Shown here in pieces: positions 27,052 to 29,878 of a stretch of 64,000 nucleotides of DNA (position 1 is its first letter; each line of letters starts with the position of its first letter). The notes beneath the pieces are model-generated. The model saw only the letters and a program-made list of their open reading frames with translations. It did no database searches and was not told where the DNA came from. The stretch covers positions 54,365,037 through 54,429,036 of the forward strand of contig NC_090280.1 of the NCBI RefSeq assembly GCF_037392515.1. Direction: 5' to 3'. The DNA comes from Haliotis asinina. Taxonomy: Eukaryota. Made by a program: the position numbers and the translations under genes.

Positions 27052-27765
27052 AATCAAGCAGCTCCTCTACTGTTTCTTCCAGATGAAATCCTCCTCCTCA
27101 TCCTGTCACTTGTACCAATTACGGATCTGGCATGTAATGTTAGCAAAACCTGCAAGCATTTCAGGCAACTTTTAAGGGGAAATAGAACCTTATGGAAGGA
27201 CATTTCATTTCCTTGTGACACACATCTAAGTCTTGGGCAAGTTAACAAAGTCTTGAGCACATCATGTTATTTTGAGAGTCTTGATTTTGCCGATGTGACT
27301 GTTCATGGATGCCCTGCTGCGGTAGATTACACATTTACCATAGGACTAGTCAGGGATGAGAGGCTCTTATGGCTTGATTTGACAGATTTGCAGATATCAA
27401 GTCTGTCATTTCTTGTGAGTCTGTCTAACCTGGAACTCCTTTGCCTCGAAAAGTGCAAAAATCTAATTGACGCAGATTTTCAGGTGATCAGGTCATGTTG
27501 GAAGCTTGAACATTTAAATGTCAGCCACACCTGCATACAACCCTCTACACTTGTAGACATCTTCAGGGGAACAAAGAGATGTTTTAACTTGGAAGCCATT
27601 GGTGTGACGTTTACATTGAATGAATGTTTGGACTTGATGTGCGAGGCCCATGAGTCCTTGATGTTCTTTGATCTAACTTTAGATGAAAGTGTTTCACTTC
27701 AGGAATTCCAAGACTTTGTCACTGATGAATTTGTTGACTGCAGAATTAAAATAAGGCCTGAATGA
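27052..27765 (+). CDS. F-box / leucine-rich-repeat (FBXL-like) coding segment lacking its own ATG; nested in phosphatase intron 3
   Basis: A strong acceptor tttcttttcag| sits at 27049-51. The 238-codon open frame reads NQAAPLLFLPDEILLLILSLVPITDLACNVSKTCKHFRQLLRGNRTLWKDISF.. (F-box motif LPDEIL..L..L), then LRR-like repeats (LDLTDLQISSLSFLVSLSNLELLCLEKCKNLIDADFQVIRSCWKLEHLNVSHT..), and ends with TGA at 27763-65. It has no in-frame ATG before residue ~190, so it needs an upstream exon that is not identified. It is out of phase with phosphatase exon 3. Confidence 0.55.
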   Translation, partial: NQAAPLLFLPDEILLLILSLVPITDLACNVSKTCKHFRQLLRGNRTLWKDISFPCDTHLSLGQVNKVLSTSCYFESLDFADVTVHGCPAAVDYTFTIGLVRDERLLWLDLTDLQISSLSFLVSLSNLELLCLEKCKNLIDADFQVIRSCWKLEHLNVSHTCIQPSTLVDIFRGTKRCFNLEAIGVTFTLNECLDLMCEAHESLMFFDLTLDESVSLQEFQDFVTDEFVDCRIKIRPE

Positions 27766-27775
27766 TATACGCATC

Positions 27776-29878
27776 ATGTCTGCCATATTTGAATTAGACA
27801 AAGTATTAACTCTAATTAATAATTCTGACAATGAGGATGAGACAGAATGTGATTTACTGGAAGTTTCACCCGTCATCGACTTGCAGAGTGATCTAATTGT
27901 CACTGACGAATCTGAAATAACCCTTTTGCACTCAGTTGATATTCTGTCTGAAGGTGTGGAAGACTGCAAGGATCTCGACCCAGATTATGAAATTGTTACA
28001 TCGGAACTGGAATCGGAAGAGGAAGCAAATAATGTGATGGTCGAAAAGAATGTTACAGCGCAGCAAACTGCCACTTCAGATCATAACAACAACGAGATTT
28101 CTGAAGAGAACCCAGTGGAATCGTCCATACCAGCATCGGATGAAGGACGGAGCAGAAAACGAAAGCGAAATAAAAATAACAGGAAAAAATCAATCAGAAA
28201 GCGGATGAGGCAGTCAGGAAAGGAGTATGTGTCTGAGAGCGGGAGGAAAGTAACGGCTAAAAACGTGAAGACAACAAAAGATTGTCAGGGTAAATGCAAA
28301 TTTAAATGTGCTCAGAAGCTCTCGCCAGAACAAAGACAAAAAACTTTTCAATCTTTCTGGAACCTGTCTGATAGTGAAAAGAGCCATTTTTATTCCAAAA
28401 CAATAAACAGAGAACAAAAGAAGAGAAGTCGAGTAGATGGTCAAAATAGCAGGACATTTGCTTACGCGTATCATTTGTTTAATGGGAACGACAAATATCG
28501 TGTTTGCAAGGAGTTTTATCTGACAACATTAAGTATCTCACAGAGGAGAGTTTCCTATTTCTTTGAGAACAAAGTTGACCCAAACACAAATGTTCCAACG
28601 GGTGGTGATTGCAGGGGTAAATCAACAAGAGACAGAATACCTCCAGAACAGAAACAAGGGGTCCGTGACCACATCAATTCATTCCCCCGAGTGGAATCAC
28701 ATTACTGTAGAGCATCTTCACGTAAGGAATATCTCGCTCAAAACTTATCACTTTCCACTATGTATCGTCTTTATCGTGAAAAGTGCCAACTGGAATCGAG
28801 GACTGCAGTGTTGATCCACACCTATAGAAACATCTTCAACCAAGAGTTCAACCTTACATTCCATGTACCAAAGAAAGACCGCTGTGACCGTTGTGAAGAA
28901 TATAACATGAAGTCTAAACATGACGATGTTGATGAAGAACTGAGGGCGGAATACCTGGCCCACTTCCAGTCTAAGGTGGCAACAAAGCAGGAACGTGACA
29001 GAGACCGTGAAGACCGTGAAAAACTTGTTGTATGCTTTGATCTGGAAAATGTCTTAAGTTGTCCACAGGCAAACATTTCAAGTTTCTTTTACCGTCGAAA
29101 ACTTAGCGTGTATAACTTAACTGCTCATTGCTCGCTGGATTCCCAGGGATATTGCGCAATCTGGAATGAAACACAAGCAGGAAGAGGTGCGAATGAAATT
29201 ACCAGTGCCTTAATATCCATATTGACCAAGATAGTGGAAAAGCACCACCCAGAACACATCACCCTTTGGTCAGATTCCTGTGTTGCGCAAAACAGAAATG
29301 CTGGAATTACATTTGCACTGAAAGATTTTATGGCAAACCACAATATCAAAAGCATTGAACAGAAATTCTGTGAGCCTGGACATTCTAGCATTCAGGAGGT
29401 GGATGCAATACACAGTATTATTGAACGACAGTTGAAACGGTCAGATGTCTATAGTCCTCTTGGAATCGTAAGATGCATGAAGTTGGCAACTGAACGGAAT
29501 CCCCTCGATATCATTCAGCTGAGACAGAATCACTTCAAAAAGTACATTGAAGCTTCCAGATGTTTGAATTTCACTCAAGTGCCCTTTACAAAAGTGAAAG
29601 CTATTTTGAGCACCAACGAGGAGCCATTTACAATTCAGTTCAAGACATCATTCGATGAGAAAATGACAATGGTCTGCATTGGTCCCAGAGAAAATAAGAG
29701 AAGACTGTCATCACCAACGCGGAGTCCTAGTGACCAATGGCCCCAAGTCAAAACCTCCATGAGTACTTTCAGCATGACAGATCAGAAGGCCAAGGACATC
29801 CGTGCAATGCTGAAGTTCATGAATCCTGTTGACAAGAAATTCATGACTGGACTTCTCCCCAAAATGAGACCTCGTTAG
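27776..29878 (+). CDS. Intact 700-aa ORF, transposase-like (putative DDE / RNase-H-fold); probable autonomous DNA-transposon or domesticated-transposase gene, superfamily unassigned
   Basis: It is a single uninterrupted 2.1-kb ORF inside an intron of a eukaryotic gene. It has an N-terminal acidic region and a basic NLS-like stretch (RSRKRKRNKNNRKKSIRKRMRQ). Cys-rich motifs follow (CQGKCKFKC .. FQSFWNLSDSEKSHFY; CDRCEEY). The C-terminal half carries candidate catalytic residues in DDE order: VVCFDLENV (D), ITLWSDSCVAQNRN (D), and CEPGHSSIQEVDAIHSIIERQLKR (E followed by the basic helix typical of DDE transposases). Confidence 0.5.
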   Translation: MSAIFELDKVLTLINNSDNEDETECDLLEVSPVIDLQSDLIVTDESEITLLHSVDILSEGVEDCKDLDPDYEIVTSELESEEEANNVMVEKNVTAQQTATSDHNNNEISEENPVESSIPASDEGRSRKRKRNKNNRKKSIRKRMRQSGKEYVSESGRKVTAKNVKTTKDCQGKCKFKCAQKLSPEQRQKTFQSFWNLSDSEKSHFYSKTINREQKKRSRVDGQNSRTFAYAYHLFNGNDKYRVCKEFYLTTLSISQRRVSYFFENKVDPNTNVPTGGDCRGKSTRDRIPPEQKQGVRDHINSFPRVESHYCRASSRKEYLAQNLSLSTMYRLYREKCQLESRTAVLIHTYRNIFNQEFNLTFHVPKKDRCDRCEEYNMKSKHDDVDEELRAEYLAHFQSKVATKQERDRDREDREKLVVCFDLENVLSCPQANISSFFYRRKLSVYNLTAHCSLDSQGYCAIWNETQAGRGANEITSALISILTKIVEKHHPEHITLWSDSCVAQNRNAGITFALKDFMANHNIKSIEQKFCEPGHSSIQEVDAIHSIIERQLKRSDVYSPLGIVRCMKLATERNPLDIIQLRQNHFKKYIEASRCLNFTQVPFTKVKAILSTNEEPFTIQFKTSFDEKMTMVCIGPRENKRRLSSPTRSPSDQWPQVKTSMSTFSMTDQKAKDIRAMLKFMNPVDKKFMTGLLPKMRPR

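What the first reader, a model, noticed from the sequence alone, without database searches (positions are those of the whole stretch)
27052..29878. Two-ORF unit nested in an intron: F-box/LRR frame without ATG, then an intact 700-aa DDE-like transposase ORF
The F-box/LRR frame (27052-27765) has a canonical 3' splice site and no initiator ATG. Ten bp after its stop, a 700-codon uninterrupted ORF begins. Its C-terminal half carries candidate catalytic residues in DDE order (FDLENV .. WSDSCVAQNRN .. IQEVDAIHSIIERQLKR). Its N-terminus has an NLS-like basic tract and Cys-rich motifs (CQGKCKFKC, FWNLSDSEKSHFY, CDRCEEY). The pair sits inside intron 3 of the Y_phosphatase3 gene on the same strand. The 700-aa ORF is intact, so the element is either recently active or a domesticated transposase. 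The adjacency to an F-box/LRR frame suggests either exon capture by a transposon or a transposase fused to an E3-ligase adaptor.
Basis: partly seen in the sequence, partly recalled or inferred. Interest (0 to 1): 0.75.

Follow-up and report, generated by a model that had tools for sequence, protein, structure and literature searches.

The report
Sola1 transposon carrying an F-box gene
The two reading frames are one intact 4.7-kb Sola1 "cut-and-paste" DNA transposon sitting in an intron of an abalone phosphatase gene, and its SKP2-like F-box/LRR gene is a conserved second gene of a mollusc transposon lineage, which suggests the transposon brings its own adaptor for the host's ubiquitin ligase.

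Summary
A 237-codon F-box/LRR frame (27052-27765, no ATG) is followed 10 nt later by an intact 700-codon ORF (27776-29878). Both lie in an intron of a same-strand Y_phosphatase3 gene.

The pair is a complete DNA transposon, 26458-31141 (4,684 bp). It has 30-nt terminal inverted repeats (first 25 nt identical), inverted subterminal motifs and a perfect 4-bp target-site duplication (AACT).

The 700-aa protein is a Sola1 transposase. It is 38% identical (E=1e-28) to the Repbase Sola1-1_AP core. Its predicted catalytic domain has an RNase H fold with D422, D500 and E541/D543. It is 100% identical to an "uncharacterized protein" of Haliotis asinina.

The F-box frame is neither a one-off exon capture nor a host exon. 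The same roughly 235-aa F-box/LRR ORF sits -19 to +10 nt upstream of a Sola1 transposase at all ten loci examined. These include Mytilus galloprovincialis, M. coruscus and Ruditapes philippinarum. Hydra, bichir and beetle relatives lack it.

ORF1 models as a compact SKP2/FBXL-like protein. Its role as an SCF substrate receptor hijacked by the transposon is inferred, not shown. I found no published description of it.

This is a new variant of a known kind, of moderate to high interest.

The parts
26454..26457 (.). Left copy of the 4-bp target-site duplication (AACT)
   Evidence: AACT directly flanks both termini. Perfect 4-bp TSDs are also found in 6 of 7 related elements.
26458..26487 (+). Left terminal inverted repeat, CGTCGCCTGAAAACCAGAGTGTTCCAAGTC
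   Evidence: The first 25 nt occur exactly twice in the window, in inverted orientation, against 0 expected. The termini align with those of related elements from molluscs, beetle, Hydra and bichir.
26695..26707 (+). Subterminal motif TGGAGATAGAACA, copy 1 (probable transposase-binding site)
   Evidence: Three exact copies, all inside the element, left ones + and right one -. The same motif lies in or near the TIRs of L001, L002 and L003.
26903..26915 (+). Subterminal motif TGGAGATAGAACA, copy 2
26744..26746 (+). Candidate start codon of ORF1 at the end of a 5' exon (ATG|GTAAGT). Inferred.
   Evidence: It is the only ATG|GTR donor between the left TIR and ORF1. Joining it to 27052 gives in-frame MNQAAPLLFLPDEIL..., comparable with MNIIDFPEHIL in L001.
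26747..27051 (+). Candidate 305-nt intron (GTAAGT...ttcttttcAG) in the 5' region of the element. Inferred.
   Evidence: Acceptor-like sites lie just upstream of ORF1 in L001, L003 and L005 too.
27052..27765 (+). ORF1: SKP2/FBXL-like F-box + LRR protein (237 codons + TGA), the accessory gene of the element
   Evidence: Pfam F-box-like E=6e-11. AF2 model with pLDDT 85 and pTM 0.81 shows a 3-helix F-box plus about 7 LRRs. Foldseek top hits are SKP2, FBXL2 and FBXL17. Homologous ORF1 lies upstream of the transposase in all the other loci.
27776..29878 (+). ORF2: Sola1 transposase, 700 aa, intact
   Evidence: 100% identical to a H. asinina 'uncharacterized protein' and has 290 homologues. Pfam DUF7869. 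38% identity, E=1e-28, to the Sola1-1_AP core, with no match to the Sola2 or Sola3 cores.
29012..29440 (+). RNase H-like catalytic core of the transposase (aa 413-555; D422, D500, E541/D543)
30876..30890 (-). Internal copy of the TIR-inner motif AACCAGAGTGTTCCA (1 mismatch)
   Evidence: 3 matches in the window, all in the element, against 0.3 expected.
30922..30934 (-). Subterminal motif TGGAGATAGAACA, right-end copy in inverted orientation
31112..31141 (-). Right terminal inverted repeat
   Evidence: 29 of 30 positions are complementary to the left TIR.
31142..31145 (.). Right copy of the target-site duplication (AACT)
25739..25863 (+). Host Y_phosphatase3 coding exon 3 (context: upstream boundary of the invaded intron)
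31657..31771 (+). Host Y_phosphatase3 last coding exon (context: downstream boundary of the invaded intron)
   Evidence: The Pfam match runs across the exon 3/4 junction to profile position 239/240.

Best explanation
SHOWN. Window 26458-31141 is a structurally complete, autonomous Sola1 DNA transposon in the genome of Haliotis asinina. It is inserted in sense orientation in the intron between coding exons 3 and 4 of a Y_phosphatase3 gene. It has 30-nt TIRs beginning CGTCGCC, inverted subterminal repeats and a 4-bp TSD (AACT).

SHOWN. It carries two tightly packed same-strand genes. ORF2 is a DDE/D transposase of the Sola1 group with an RNase H fold and all conserved residues present. Sola transposases are classed among cut-and-paste DDD/E enzymes. 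ORF1 is a roughly 235-aa F-box plus about 7-LRR protein of the FBXL/SKP2 type. It is an integral, conserved accessory gene of a Sola1 lineage found in molluscs (Haliotis, Mytilus x2, Ruditapes) and in several unassigned environmental contigs. It is always -19 to +10 nt upstream of the transposase.

INFERRED (about 0.5). ORF1 binds host SKP1 through its canonical F-box and acts as a transposon-supplied substrate receptor of the SCF ubiquitin ligase. It would send a host protein to the proteasome, either a restriction or silencing factor or, SKP2-like, a cell-cycle inhibitor. Alternatively it could tune the level of the transposase itself.

INFERRED (about 0.5). Both ORFs are expressed from one transcript. 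ORF1 would start from an ATG at the end of a short 5' exon (26744-26746) spliced to 27052. ORF2 would be translated by termination-reinitiation, as suggested by ATGA stop/start overlaps in two relatives.
For: TIRs, TSD and subterminal repeats.

Termini align across eight elements from molluscs, beetle, Hydra and bichir. Perfect 4-bp TSDs flank seven of eight elements: AACT, GTTT, ATAT, TCGT, TAAT, AGTT, ATAT.

Sola1 assignment: BLASTP to the Sola1-1_AP core taken from the supplement of Majorek et al. 2014 (PMC3985635) gives 38% identity, E=1e-28. The Sola2-1_HM and Sola3-1_HM cores give nothing. Sola elements are described as having 4-bp TSDs and sizes of 2-9 kb (PMC10741241).

The family is patchy and multicopy: 290 homologues, with a 92-member cluster in Hydra.

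ORF1 conservation and linkage, starting from transposase homologues: L001, L003, L004, L005, L012. Starting independently from ORF1 homologues: L008, L009, L010, L011, all followed by a Sola1 transposase.

ORF1 proteins align over their full length at 29-34% identity with 22-30 invariant positions.

ORF1 to ORF2 spacing is +10, -4, +9, -19, +2, +6, +9, -4 nt.

ORF1 nature: Pfam F-box-like in all copies. Profile against PDB gives FBXL2 1e-13, SKP2 2e-8 (full-length colinear) and FBXL17 1e-7. The nearest cellular proteins in 5.8 billion sequences are SKP2 of a fish and a brittle star. AF2 pTM 0.81, and Foldseek top hits are SKP2.

The ORF1 family has 81 cluster representatives at E<=1e-30, mostly 200-260 aa.

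Host intron.
Against: No expression, splicing or protein data were available. The 5' exon, the bicistronic mRNA, SKP1 binding and any substrate are all unproven.

Copy number in H. asinina could not be measured. The transposase's 90%-identity cluster has a single member and the next-best hit in the database is only 48% identical. No other copy or fragment lies in the 64-kb window. Current mobility is therefore not shown.

One related element (L001) lacks a clean TSD.

The SKP2 resemblance may reflect only generic FBXL architecture. FBXL2 scores higher by summed score.

The ORF1 region is not depleted of ATGs: 21 in this copy against about 13 expected. ORF2 translation therefore needs reinitiation, an internal entry mechanism or a separate transcript.
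Confidence: 0.8

Rival explanations
1. Domesticated pair. The transposase, and perhaps the F-box gene, has been co-opted as a single-copy host gene nested in the phosphatase intron and is no longer mobile.
For: Both ORFs are intact. The transposase is annotated as a single 'uncharacterized protein' with a 1-member 90% cluster, and no second close copy is seen in the database or in the window.
Against: The TIRs are essentially intact (25/25, 29/30) with subterminal repeats and a perfect TSD; by general knowledge these decay or are lost on domestication. No close orthologue from any other Haliotis species is among the listed hits. Relatives sit at unrelated sites, for example an ornithine decarboxylase intron in Mytilus.
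Confidence: 0.06
2. One-off capture or host exon. The F-box/LRR frame is a host exon, either an alternative exon of the phosphatase gene or a fragment picked up by this particular copy (Pack-type capture). It has no function for the element.
For: The frame lacks an ATG and has a good 3' splice site. It is on the same strand as the host gene.
Against: It lies inside the TIRs. Homologous full-length ORFs occupy the same position in ten loci from different species and different genomic contexts. ORF1 relatives found independently are all followed by a Sola1 transposase. The phosphatase domain is complete without it.
Confidence: 0.03
3. ORF1 is a genuine accessory protein, but it does not work through SCF-mediated degradation. 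It could be a structural cofactor that uses its LRR surface to bind the transposase or chromatin for targeting, nuclear import or transpososome assembly. This would resemble the Myb-like ORF1 of PIF/Harbinger. The F-box would be a relic of its origin.
For: Other two-gene DNA transposons use the second protein as a DNA-binding or localisation cofactor (general knowledge of PIF/Harbinger). ORF1 is short, with about 7 LRRs.
Against: The F-box is one of the better conserved parts of ORF1: P10, L26, V30, C34, K35, L47 and W48 are invariant in 8 sequences that are only about 30% identical overall. Pfam recognises it in all copies. That argues for retained SKP1 binding.
Confidence: 0.25
4. ORF1 and ORF2 are joined into a single F-box::transposase fusion protein by splicing, frameshifting or readthrough. 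This would be the reader's 'transposase fused to an E3 adaptor'.
For: Gene models in Mytilus coruscus (P0123, P0133) and P0151 join ORF1 to the transposase N-terminus. The spacing is very short.
Against: The relative reading frame differs between loci: the gap modulo 3 is 1, 2, 0, 2, 2, 0, 0, 2. Every ORF2 keeps its own ATG and an acidic, unstructured N-terminal region. The fusion models are ab initio predictions that also swallow host exons.
Confidence: 0.08

Closest known systems
Sola1 DNA transposons (Sola superfamily, Bao et al. 2009; Repbase Sola1-1_AP; RNase H-like group E.10 of Majorek et al. 2014)
   Same: The transposase core is 38% identical, E=1e-28. It has 4-bp TSDs and TIRs, a size within 2-9 kb, an RNase H fold with an acidic triad, and a patchy metazoan distribution including Hydra and insects.
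   Different: It carries a conserved upstream F-box/LRR gene. No paper in the searchable library that mentions Sola1 describes such a gene. I could not read Bao et al. 2009 or the Repbase entries, so I cannot exclude an unremarked note there.
Two-gene or accessory-gene DNA transposons: PIF/Harbinger (Myb-like ORF1), VANDAL MULEs (VANC anti-silencing, PMC5735166), Ectocarpus Sola1-1_Ec32 (ParB-methyltransferase gene, PMC12477816), KolobokP (His-Me endonuclease, PMC9587614), fungal transposons encoding TET/JBP (PMC12730594)
   Same: A TIR transposon encodes, besides the transposase, a conserved second protein that presumably manipulates the host or assists transposition.
   Different: The accessory protein here is an F-box/LRR substrate-receptor-like protein. 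It lies upstream, on the same strand, and almost abuts the transposase ORF. In several of the other systems the genes are separate or opposed.
Cellular FBXL proteins, especially SKP2 (FBXL1), FBXL2 and FBXL17
   Same: An N-terminal three-helix F-box is followed directly by cysteine-containing-type LRRs (LxLxxCxxLxDxDF). These are the best sequence and structure matches.
   Different: ORF1 is much shorter, at about 235 aa and about 7 LRRs. It has no N-terminal regulatory region and no SKP2 C-terminal tail. It is only about 18% identical to SKP2 in structure alignments. It is encoded inside a mobile element. Orthology to SKP2 is not established.
Virus-encoded F-box proteins that hijack SCF (polerovirus P0, nanovirus Clink, poxvirus ankyrin/PRANC proteins). 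Recalled from general knowledge, not tested here.
   Same: A genetic parasite supplies its own F-box adaptor to redirect the host ubiquitin ligase against defence or cell-cycle proteins. This is the working analogy for ORF1.
   Different: Those are viruses with unrelated substrate-binding domains. No substrate or SKP1 interaction is known for ORF1.
Bicistronic retrotransposon and viral mRNAs with stop/start overlap (LINE-1 ORF1/ORF2, calicivirus and influenza B termination-reinitiation). General knowledge.
   Same: There are two long ORFs on one strand, separated by a few nucleotides or overlapping as ATGA (L001, L011).
   Different: A single transcript is not demonstrated here, and no reinitiation-promoting element has been identified.

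Membership tests
Sola1 (Sola superfamily) DNA transposon | Transposase significantly similar to Sola1 reference transposases and not to other superfamilies | tested here: met
   BLASTP against the Sola1-1_AP core gives 38% identity, E=1e-28. The Sola2-1_HM and Sola3-1_HM cores give no significant match. Pfam returns only DUF7869.
Sola1 (Sola superfamily) DNA transposon | 4-bp target-site duplication | tested here: met
   AACT is present on both sides. Perfect 4-bp TSDs flank 7 of 8 elements in total.
Sola1 (Sola superfamily) DNA transposon | Terminal inverted repeats bounding the element | tested here: met
   30-nt TIRs, 29/30 matching, first 25 identical, against 0 expected by chance. The termini are conserved across species.
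Sola1 (Sola superfamily) DNA transposon | DDD/DDE catalytic triad on an RNase H-like fold | tested here: met
Sola1 (Sola superfamily) DNA transposon | Mobility: multiple copies or polymorphic insertion in the host genome | not testable with these tools
   The H. asinina genome cannot be searched here. There is only one copy in the window and a 1-member protein cluster.
F-box protein, FBXL class (SCF substrate receptor) | F-box motif of about 40-50 aa at the N-terminus | tested here: met
   Pfam F-box-like E=6e-11 and F-box E=1.6e-7, also found in L001, L003, L004 and L005. The model shows three helices at residues 11-43.
F-box protein, FBXL class (SCF substrate receptor) | Leucine-rich repeats C-terminal to the F-box | tested here: met
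   The AF2 model has about 7 beta-alpha repeats. Foldseek hits SKP2, FBXL2 and FBXL17. The profile matches FBXL2, SKP2 and FBXL17 in the PDB.
F-box protein, FBXL class (SCF substrate receptor) | Binds SKP1 and assembles into SCF; has a degradation substrate | not testable with these tools
   Requires co-IP, complex prediction or biochemistry.
SKP2 orthologue | Specific (reciprocal-best) relationship to SKP2 rather than to FBXL proteins in general | tested here: inconclusive
   SKP2 is the nearest named cellular hit in the 5.8-billion-sequence database (E=3.6e-8 and 1.5e-6) and the top Foldseek hit. FBXL2 scores higher against the PDB by summed score. No phylogeny was made.
Domesticated transposase gene | Loss of TIRs and TSD, and fixation as an orthologous host gene | tested here: not met
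   TIRs and TSD are intact. No close orthologue from another Haliotis species is among the listed homologues. Synteny itself is not testable here.
Bicistronic (termination-reinitiation) expression unit | Both ORFs on one mRNA, with the ORF2 start within a few nt of the ORF1 stop | tested here: inconclusive
   Spacing of -19 to +10 nt is conserved in all loci, with ATGA overlaps in L001 and L011. No transcript data were available. There is no ATG depletion in ORF1.

The most novel reading that the evidence does not exclude
A lineage of Sola1 DNA transposons in molluscs encodes its own SKP2-like F-box/LRR substrate receptor. This receptor plugs into the host SKP1-CUL1 ligase to destroy a host protein that limits transposition, either a silencing or restriction factor or a CDK inhibitor that gates S phase. 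It would be a transposon counterpart of viral F-box hijackers. As far as I could find, it would be the first transposon-borne E3-ligase adaptor described in animals. It would be co-translated with the transposase from a bicistronic mRNA.
Probability: 0.4. Interest if true: 0.8.

Novelty: new variant of a known kind. Interest (0 to 1): 0.62.

Why it matters
Very few cases are known in which a eukaryotic DNA transposon encodes a factor that acts on host pathways. Examples are VANC in plant VANDALs, TET/JBP in fungal elements and ParB-methyltransferase in algal Sola1.

A conserved F-box/LRR gene inside an animal transposon would point to hijacking of the ubiquitin-proteasome system as a transposon strategy. 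This strategy is so far associated with viruses. It would also give a concrete, testable handle on host restriction of DNA transposons in molluscs, in the form of ORF1's substrate.

There are practical consequences too. The structure explains chimeric gene models in mollusc annotations, where an F-box is fused to a transposase or to host exons. It supplies termini, TSD and a two-gene architecture for annotating this Sola1 lineage. The intact Haliotis copy is a candidate active element for transposition assays.

Tried and rejected
1. Direct lookup of the genomic record for the H. asinina protein found nothing, so NCBI's exon models could not be used.

3. Literature on DUF7869 found nothing. Bao et al. 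2009 and Yuan & Wessler 2011 are not held. The Sola1 assignment was therefore made from reference cores printed in the supplement of Majorek et al. 2014.

4. A single-sequence search of ORF1 in the 5.8-billion-protein index found nothing. The profile search and exhaustive HMMER were needed. The negative result also shows that no annotated H. asinina protein contains this F-box.

5. Leaky scanning as the way to reach ORF2 was rejected, because there is no ATG depletion in ORF1.

6. A conserved frameshift or readthrough fusion was rejected, because the relative frame varies between loci.

7. For L004 my TIR script picked up other nested repeats, so the termini of that element were not defined.

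8. For L001 no clean TSD was found; the flanks are TTTA and AATT.

9. The bacterial promoter/terminator scan is irrelevant to a eukaryote and was ignored.

10. The afdb50 fold library was unavailable.

Host exons were found by eye in frame translations and then confirmed.

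
Full report
OBSERVATION. The ORF list confirms an uninterrupted 700-codon ORF at 27776-29878 on the + strand. Upstream of it is a frame open from 27037 that ends at TGA 27763-27765, exactly 10 nt before the ORF2 ATG. That frame has no in-frame ATG ahead of its F-box and is preceded by a polypyrimidine tract and CAG. Pfam recognises an F-box at its N-terminus (F-box-like E=6e-11, F-box E=1.6e-7) and weak LRRs behind it. 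The 700-aa protein hits only DUF7869, at threshold.

SOURCE. The 700-aa protein is 100% identical to an 'uncharacterized protein' of Haliotis asinina. It has 290 homologues at 35-48% identity with a patchy distribution: molluscs, Hydra (one cluster with 92 members), a bichir, beetles and many environmental contigs. This is the pattern of a mobile element.

BOUNDARIES. A repeat search found 31-nt inverted arms at 26457-26487 and 31112-31142. Trimmed to the true termini, the element is 26458-31141 (4,684 bp). It starts and ends with CGTCGCCTGAAAACCAGAGTGTTCC, which occurs exactly twice in the window, in inverted orientation, against zero expected. AACT lies on both sides as the TSD. The motif TGGAGATAGAACA occurs three times, all inside the element: twice near the left end on + and once near the right end on -. 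A TIR-inner motif recurs subterminally. Self-comparison of the window shows no other copy or fragment.

RELATED ELEMENTS. I fetched the DNA around homologous transposases and found TIRs with the same terminal sequence, flanked by 4-bp TSDs. They are L003 (CGTCGGCTGAAT..., GTTT), L005 Mytilus galloprovincialis (CGTCGTGTGAAT..., TCGT), L007 beetle (CGTCACCGTAG..., AGTT), L002 Hydra (CGCGACGTTAG..., ATAT), L006 bichir (CGCGACCTTGG..., TAAT) and L012 Ruditapes (CGTCGCTTTAG..., ATAT). L001 has the TIRs but no clean TSD. About 38 nt of the termini align across all of them. The TGGAGATAGAAC-type motif is shared, so it is probably the transposase-binding site.

The original Sola paper and Yuan & Wessler 2011 were not available. 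The supplement of Majorek et al. 2014 (PMC3985635) prints the catalytic cores of Repbase Sola1-1_AP, Sola2-1_HM and Sola3-1_HM. The window protein (aa 413-537) matches Sola1-1_AP at 38% identity, E=1e-28, and does not match the other two. Sola elements are described as having 4-bp TSDs and sizes of 2-9 kb (PMC10741241). The transposase is therefore a Sola1 transposase and the unit is a Sola1 element.

THE F-BOX ORF IS PART OF THE TRANSPOSON. In L001 (transposase 48% identical) a 233-aa ATG-initiated F-box ORF overlaps the transposase start by ATGA, inside the TIRs. The same arrangement is found in L003, L004, L005 (Mytilus galloprovincialis, inside an ornithine decarboxylase intron) and L012 (Ruditapes). 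The ORF1 proteins align end to end at 29-34% identity.

A profile of these ORF1 proteins searched against 5.8 billion proteins returns only 17 hits. About 14 are family members, followed by SKP2 of a fish and of a brittle star. I then started from three of these ORF1 hits, independently of the transposase. Their contigs (L008 Mytilus coruscus, L009 and L010, L011) all carry a Sola1 transposase ORF immediately downstream. In L009 that transposase is only about 25-29% identical to the Haliotis one, so the linkage spans deep divergence. L011 also shows the same left TIR.

An exhaustive HMMER search finds 81 cluster representatives at E<=1e-30, mostly 200-260 aa and matching over their full length. 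Hydra, bichir and beetle elements have no ORF1. On a rough NJ tree the close ORF1-bearing transposases cluster together.

ORF1 STRUCTURE. ORF1 models confidently (pLDDT 85, pTM 0.81) as a three-helix F-box followed by about seven LRRs. The best Foldseek matches are SKP2, FBXL2 and FBXL17. A profile search of the PDB gives FBXL2 1e-13, SKP2 2e-8 (one colinear stretch over the whole profile) and FBXL17 1e-7. F-box positions P10, L26, V30, C34, K35, L47 and W48 are invariant among sequences that are about 30% identical overall.

EXPRESSION LAYOUT (INFERRED). ORF1-to-ORF2 spacing is +10, -4, +9, -19, +2, +6, +9 and -4 nt across loci, with no conserved relative frame. This argues for two proteins and against a programmed fusion. 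ORF1 is not depleted of ATGs, so leaky scanning is unlikely. Termination-reinitiation or separate transcripts remain possible.

For the missing ATG of the Haliotis ORF1, the only ATG|GTR donor between the left TIR and ORF1 is ATG|GTAAGT at 26744-26752. Splicing it to the acceptor at 27051|27052 is in frame and gives MNQAAPLLFLPDEIL... Acceptor-like sites lie just before ORF1 in L001, L003 and L005 as well. No annotated H. asinina protein contains the F-box. This would fit ORF1 lying in the 5' UTR of the transposase gene model, but that is conjecture.

HOST CONTEXT. The + strand carries exons of a Y_phosphatase3 gene at 21640-22279, 23418-23566, 25739-25863 and 31657-31771. The spliced product matches PF13350 at E=1.3e-37 through profile position 239/240, across the junction that spans the element. 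The element, together with one copy of its TSD, accounts for 4,688 of the 5,793 nt of that intron.

WHAT IT MOST LIKELY IS AND DOES. Shown: an intact two-gene Sola1 transposon with TIRs and TSD. Inferred from family knowledge: the DDE/D transposase binds the conserved termini and subterminal motifs and performs cut-and-paste transposition, making 4-bp staggered target cuts. Inferred: ORF1 uses its canonical F-box to dock on host SKP1 and acts as a transposon-supplied SCF substrate receptor. The target could be a host restriction or silencing factor, a cell-cycle inhibitor (SKP2-like), or the transposase itself. I put about 0.5 on SCF-dependent function and about 0.9 on ORF1 being a selected accessory gene.

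RIVALS. The rival explanations are domestication, one-off capture or a host exon, a cofactor that does not use SCF, and a fusion protein. They are weighed in their own section, and the first two are poorly supported.

NOVELTY. Sola1 transposons are known. I found no paper in the searchable library that links Sola1, or any TIR transposon, to an encoded F-box protein. A bivalve transposon survey that curated Sola1 consensus sequences does not mention one (PMC10294476). The closest concepts are other accessory-gene transposons (PMC5735166, PMC12477816, PMC9587614, PMC12730594) and viral F-box hijackers (general knowledge). I could not inspect Repbase entries or Bao et al. 2009, so priority is not certain. 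I rate it a new variant of a known kind, with interest 0.62.

Noticed in passing
window 54277-54452 and 59955-60130 (with 55198-55647 on the - strand): A 176-nt inverted repeat pair, 98.9% identical, encloses a GC-rich region of about 5.9 kb with minus-strand ORFs. One ORF has a weak tyrosine-recombinase (Phage_integrase) hit, E=6e-4, with the motif LALATAARVSEIHALD. It is probably a degenerate DIRS-like or other tyrosine-recombinase element.
   Followed up: partly
window 38666-39620; 41355-42715; 14428-15099: Three tandem-repeat arrays with periods of about 80 nt (about 95% identity), about 173 nt (77-82%) and about 92 nt.
   Followed up: no
window 1912-2148, 5897-6150, 19529-19790, 44063-44255, 50107-50355, 60255-60473; and 9719-9889, 12430-12587, 17317-17481, 34122-34281, 47722-47882: Two dispersed families of repeats about 160-260 nt long, in both orientations. 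They look SINE- or MITE-like and were not classified.
   Followed up: no
window 33879-34130: Three tandem copies of a unit of about 60 nt, seen as a repeated peptide ...SSMGKYSFCRQFHHKDAVIV... in one frame.
   Followed up: no
proteins P0123, P0133 (Mytilus coruscus; locus L008) and P0151: Public gene models fuse ORF1 to the transposase N-terminus. In P0151 a kinase-like host N-terminus is fused as well. These are most likely chimeric predictions that read through intronic Sola1 elements.
   Followed up: partly
L005 566-16205 (Mytilus galloprovincialis): The Mytilus ORF1+ Sola1 element also sits inside a same-strand host gene (ornithine decarboxylase family). This may hint at an intronic, sense-orientation bias of this lineage, but n=2.
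   Followed up: no
L009 and L010 (Logan assemblies of SRR11676752 and SRR23090899): ORF1 is identical at the protein level in two independent sequencing runs, with a 3-nt difference at the ORF1/ORF2 junction (ATGATGTCC against ATGTCC). The associated transposase is only about 25-29% identical to the Haliotis one, so ORF1 is present in a second, deeply diverged Sola1 branch.
   Followed up: partly
window 26489-26512 and L011 184-207: Beyond the TIR, the stretch TTTTTGAAAAAAATGAGTT is conserved between the Haliotis element and L011, whose ORF1 is only about 30% identical. It may be a further cis element such as a promoter or binding site.
   Followed up: no
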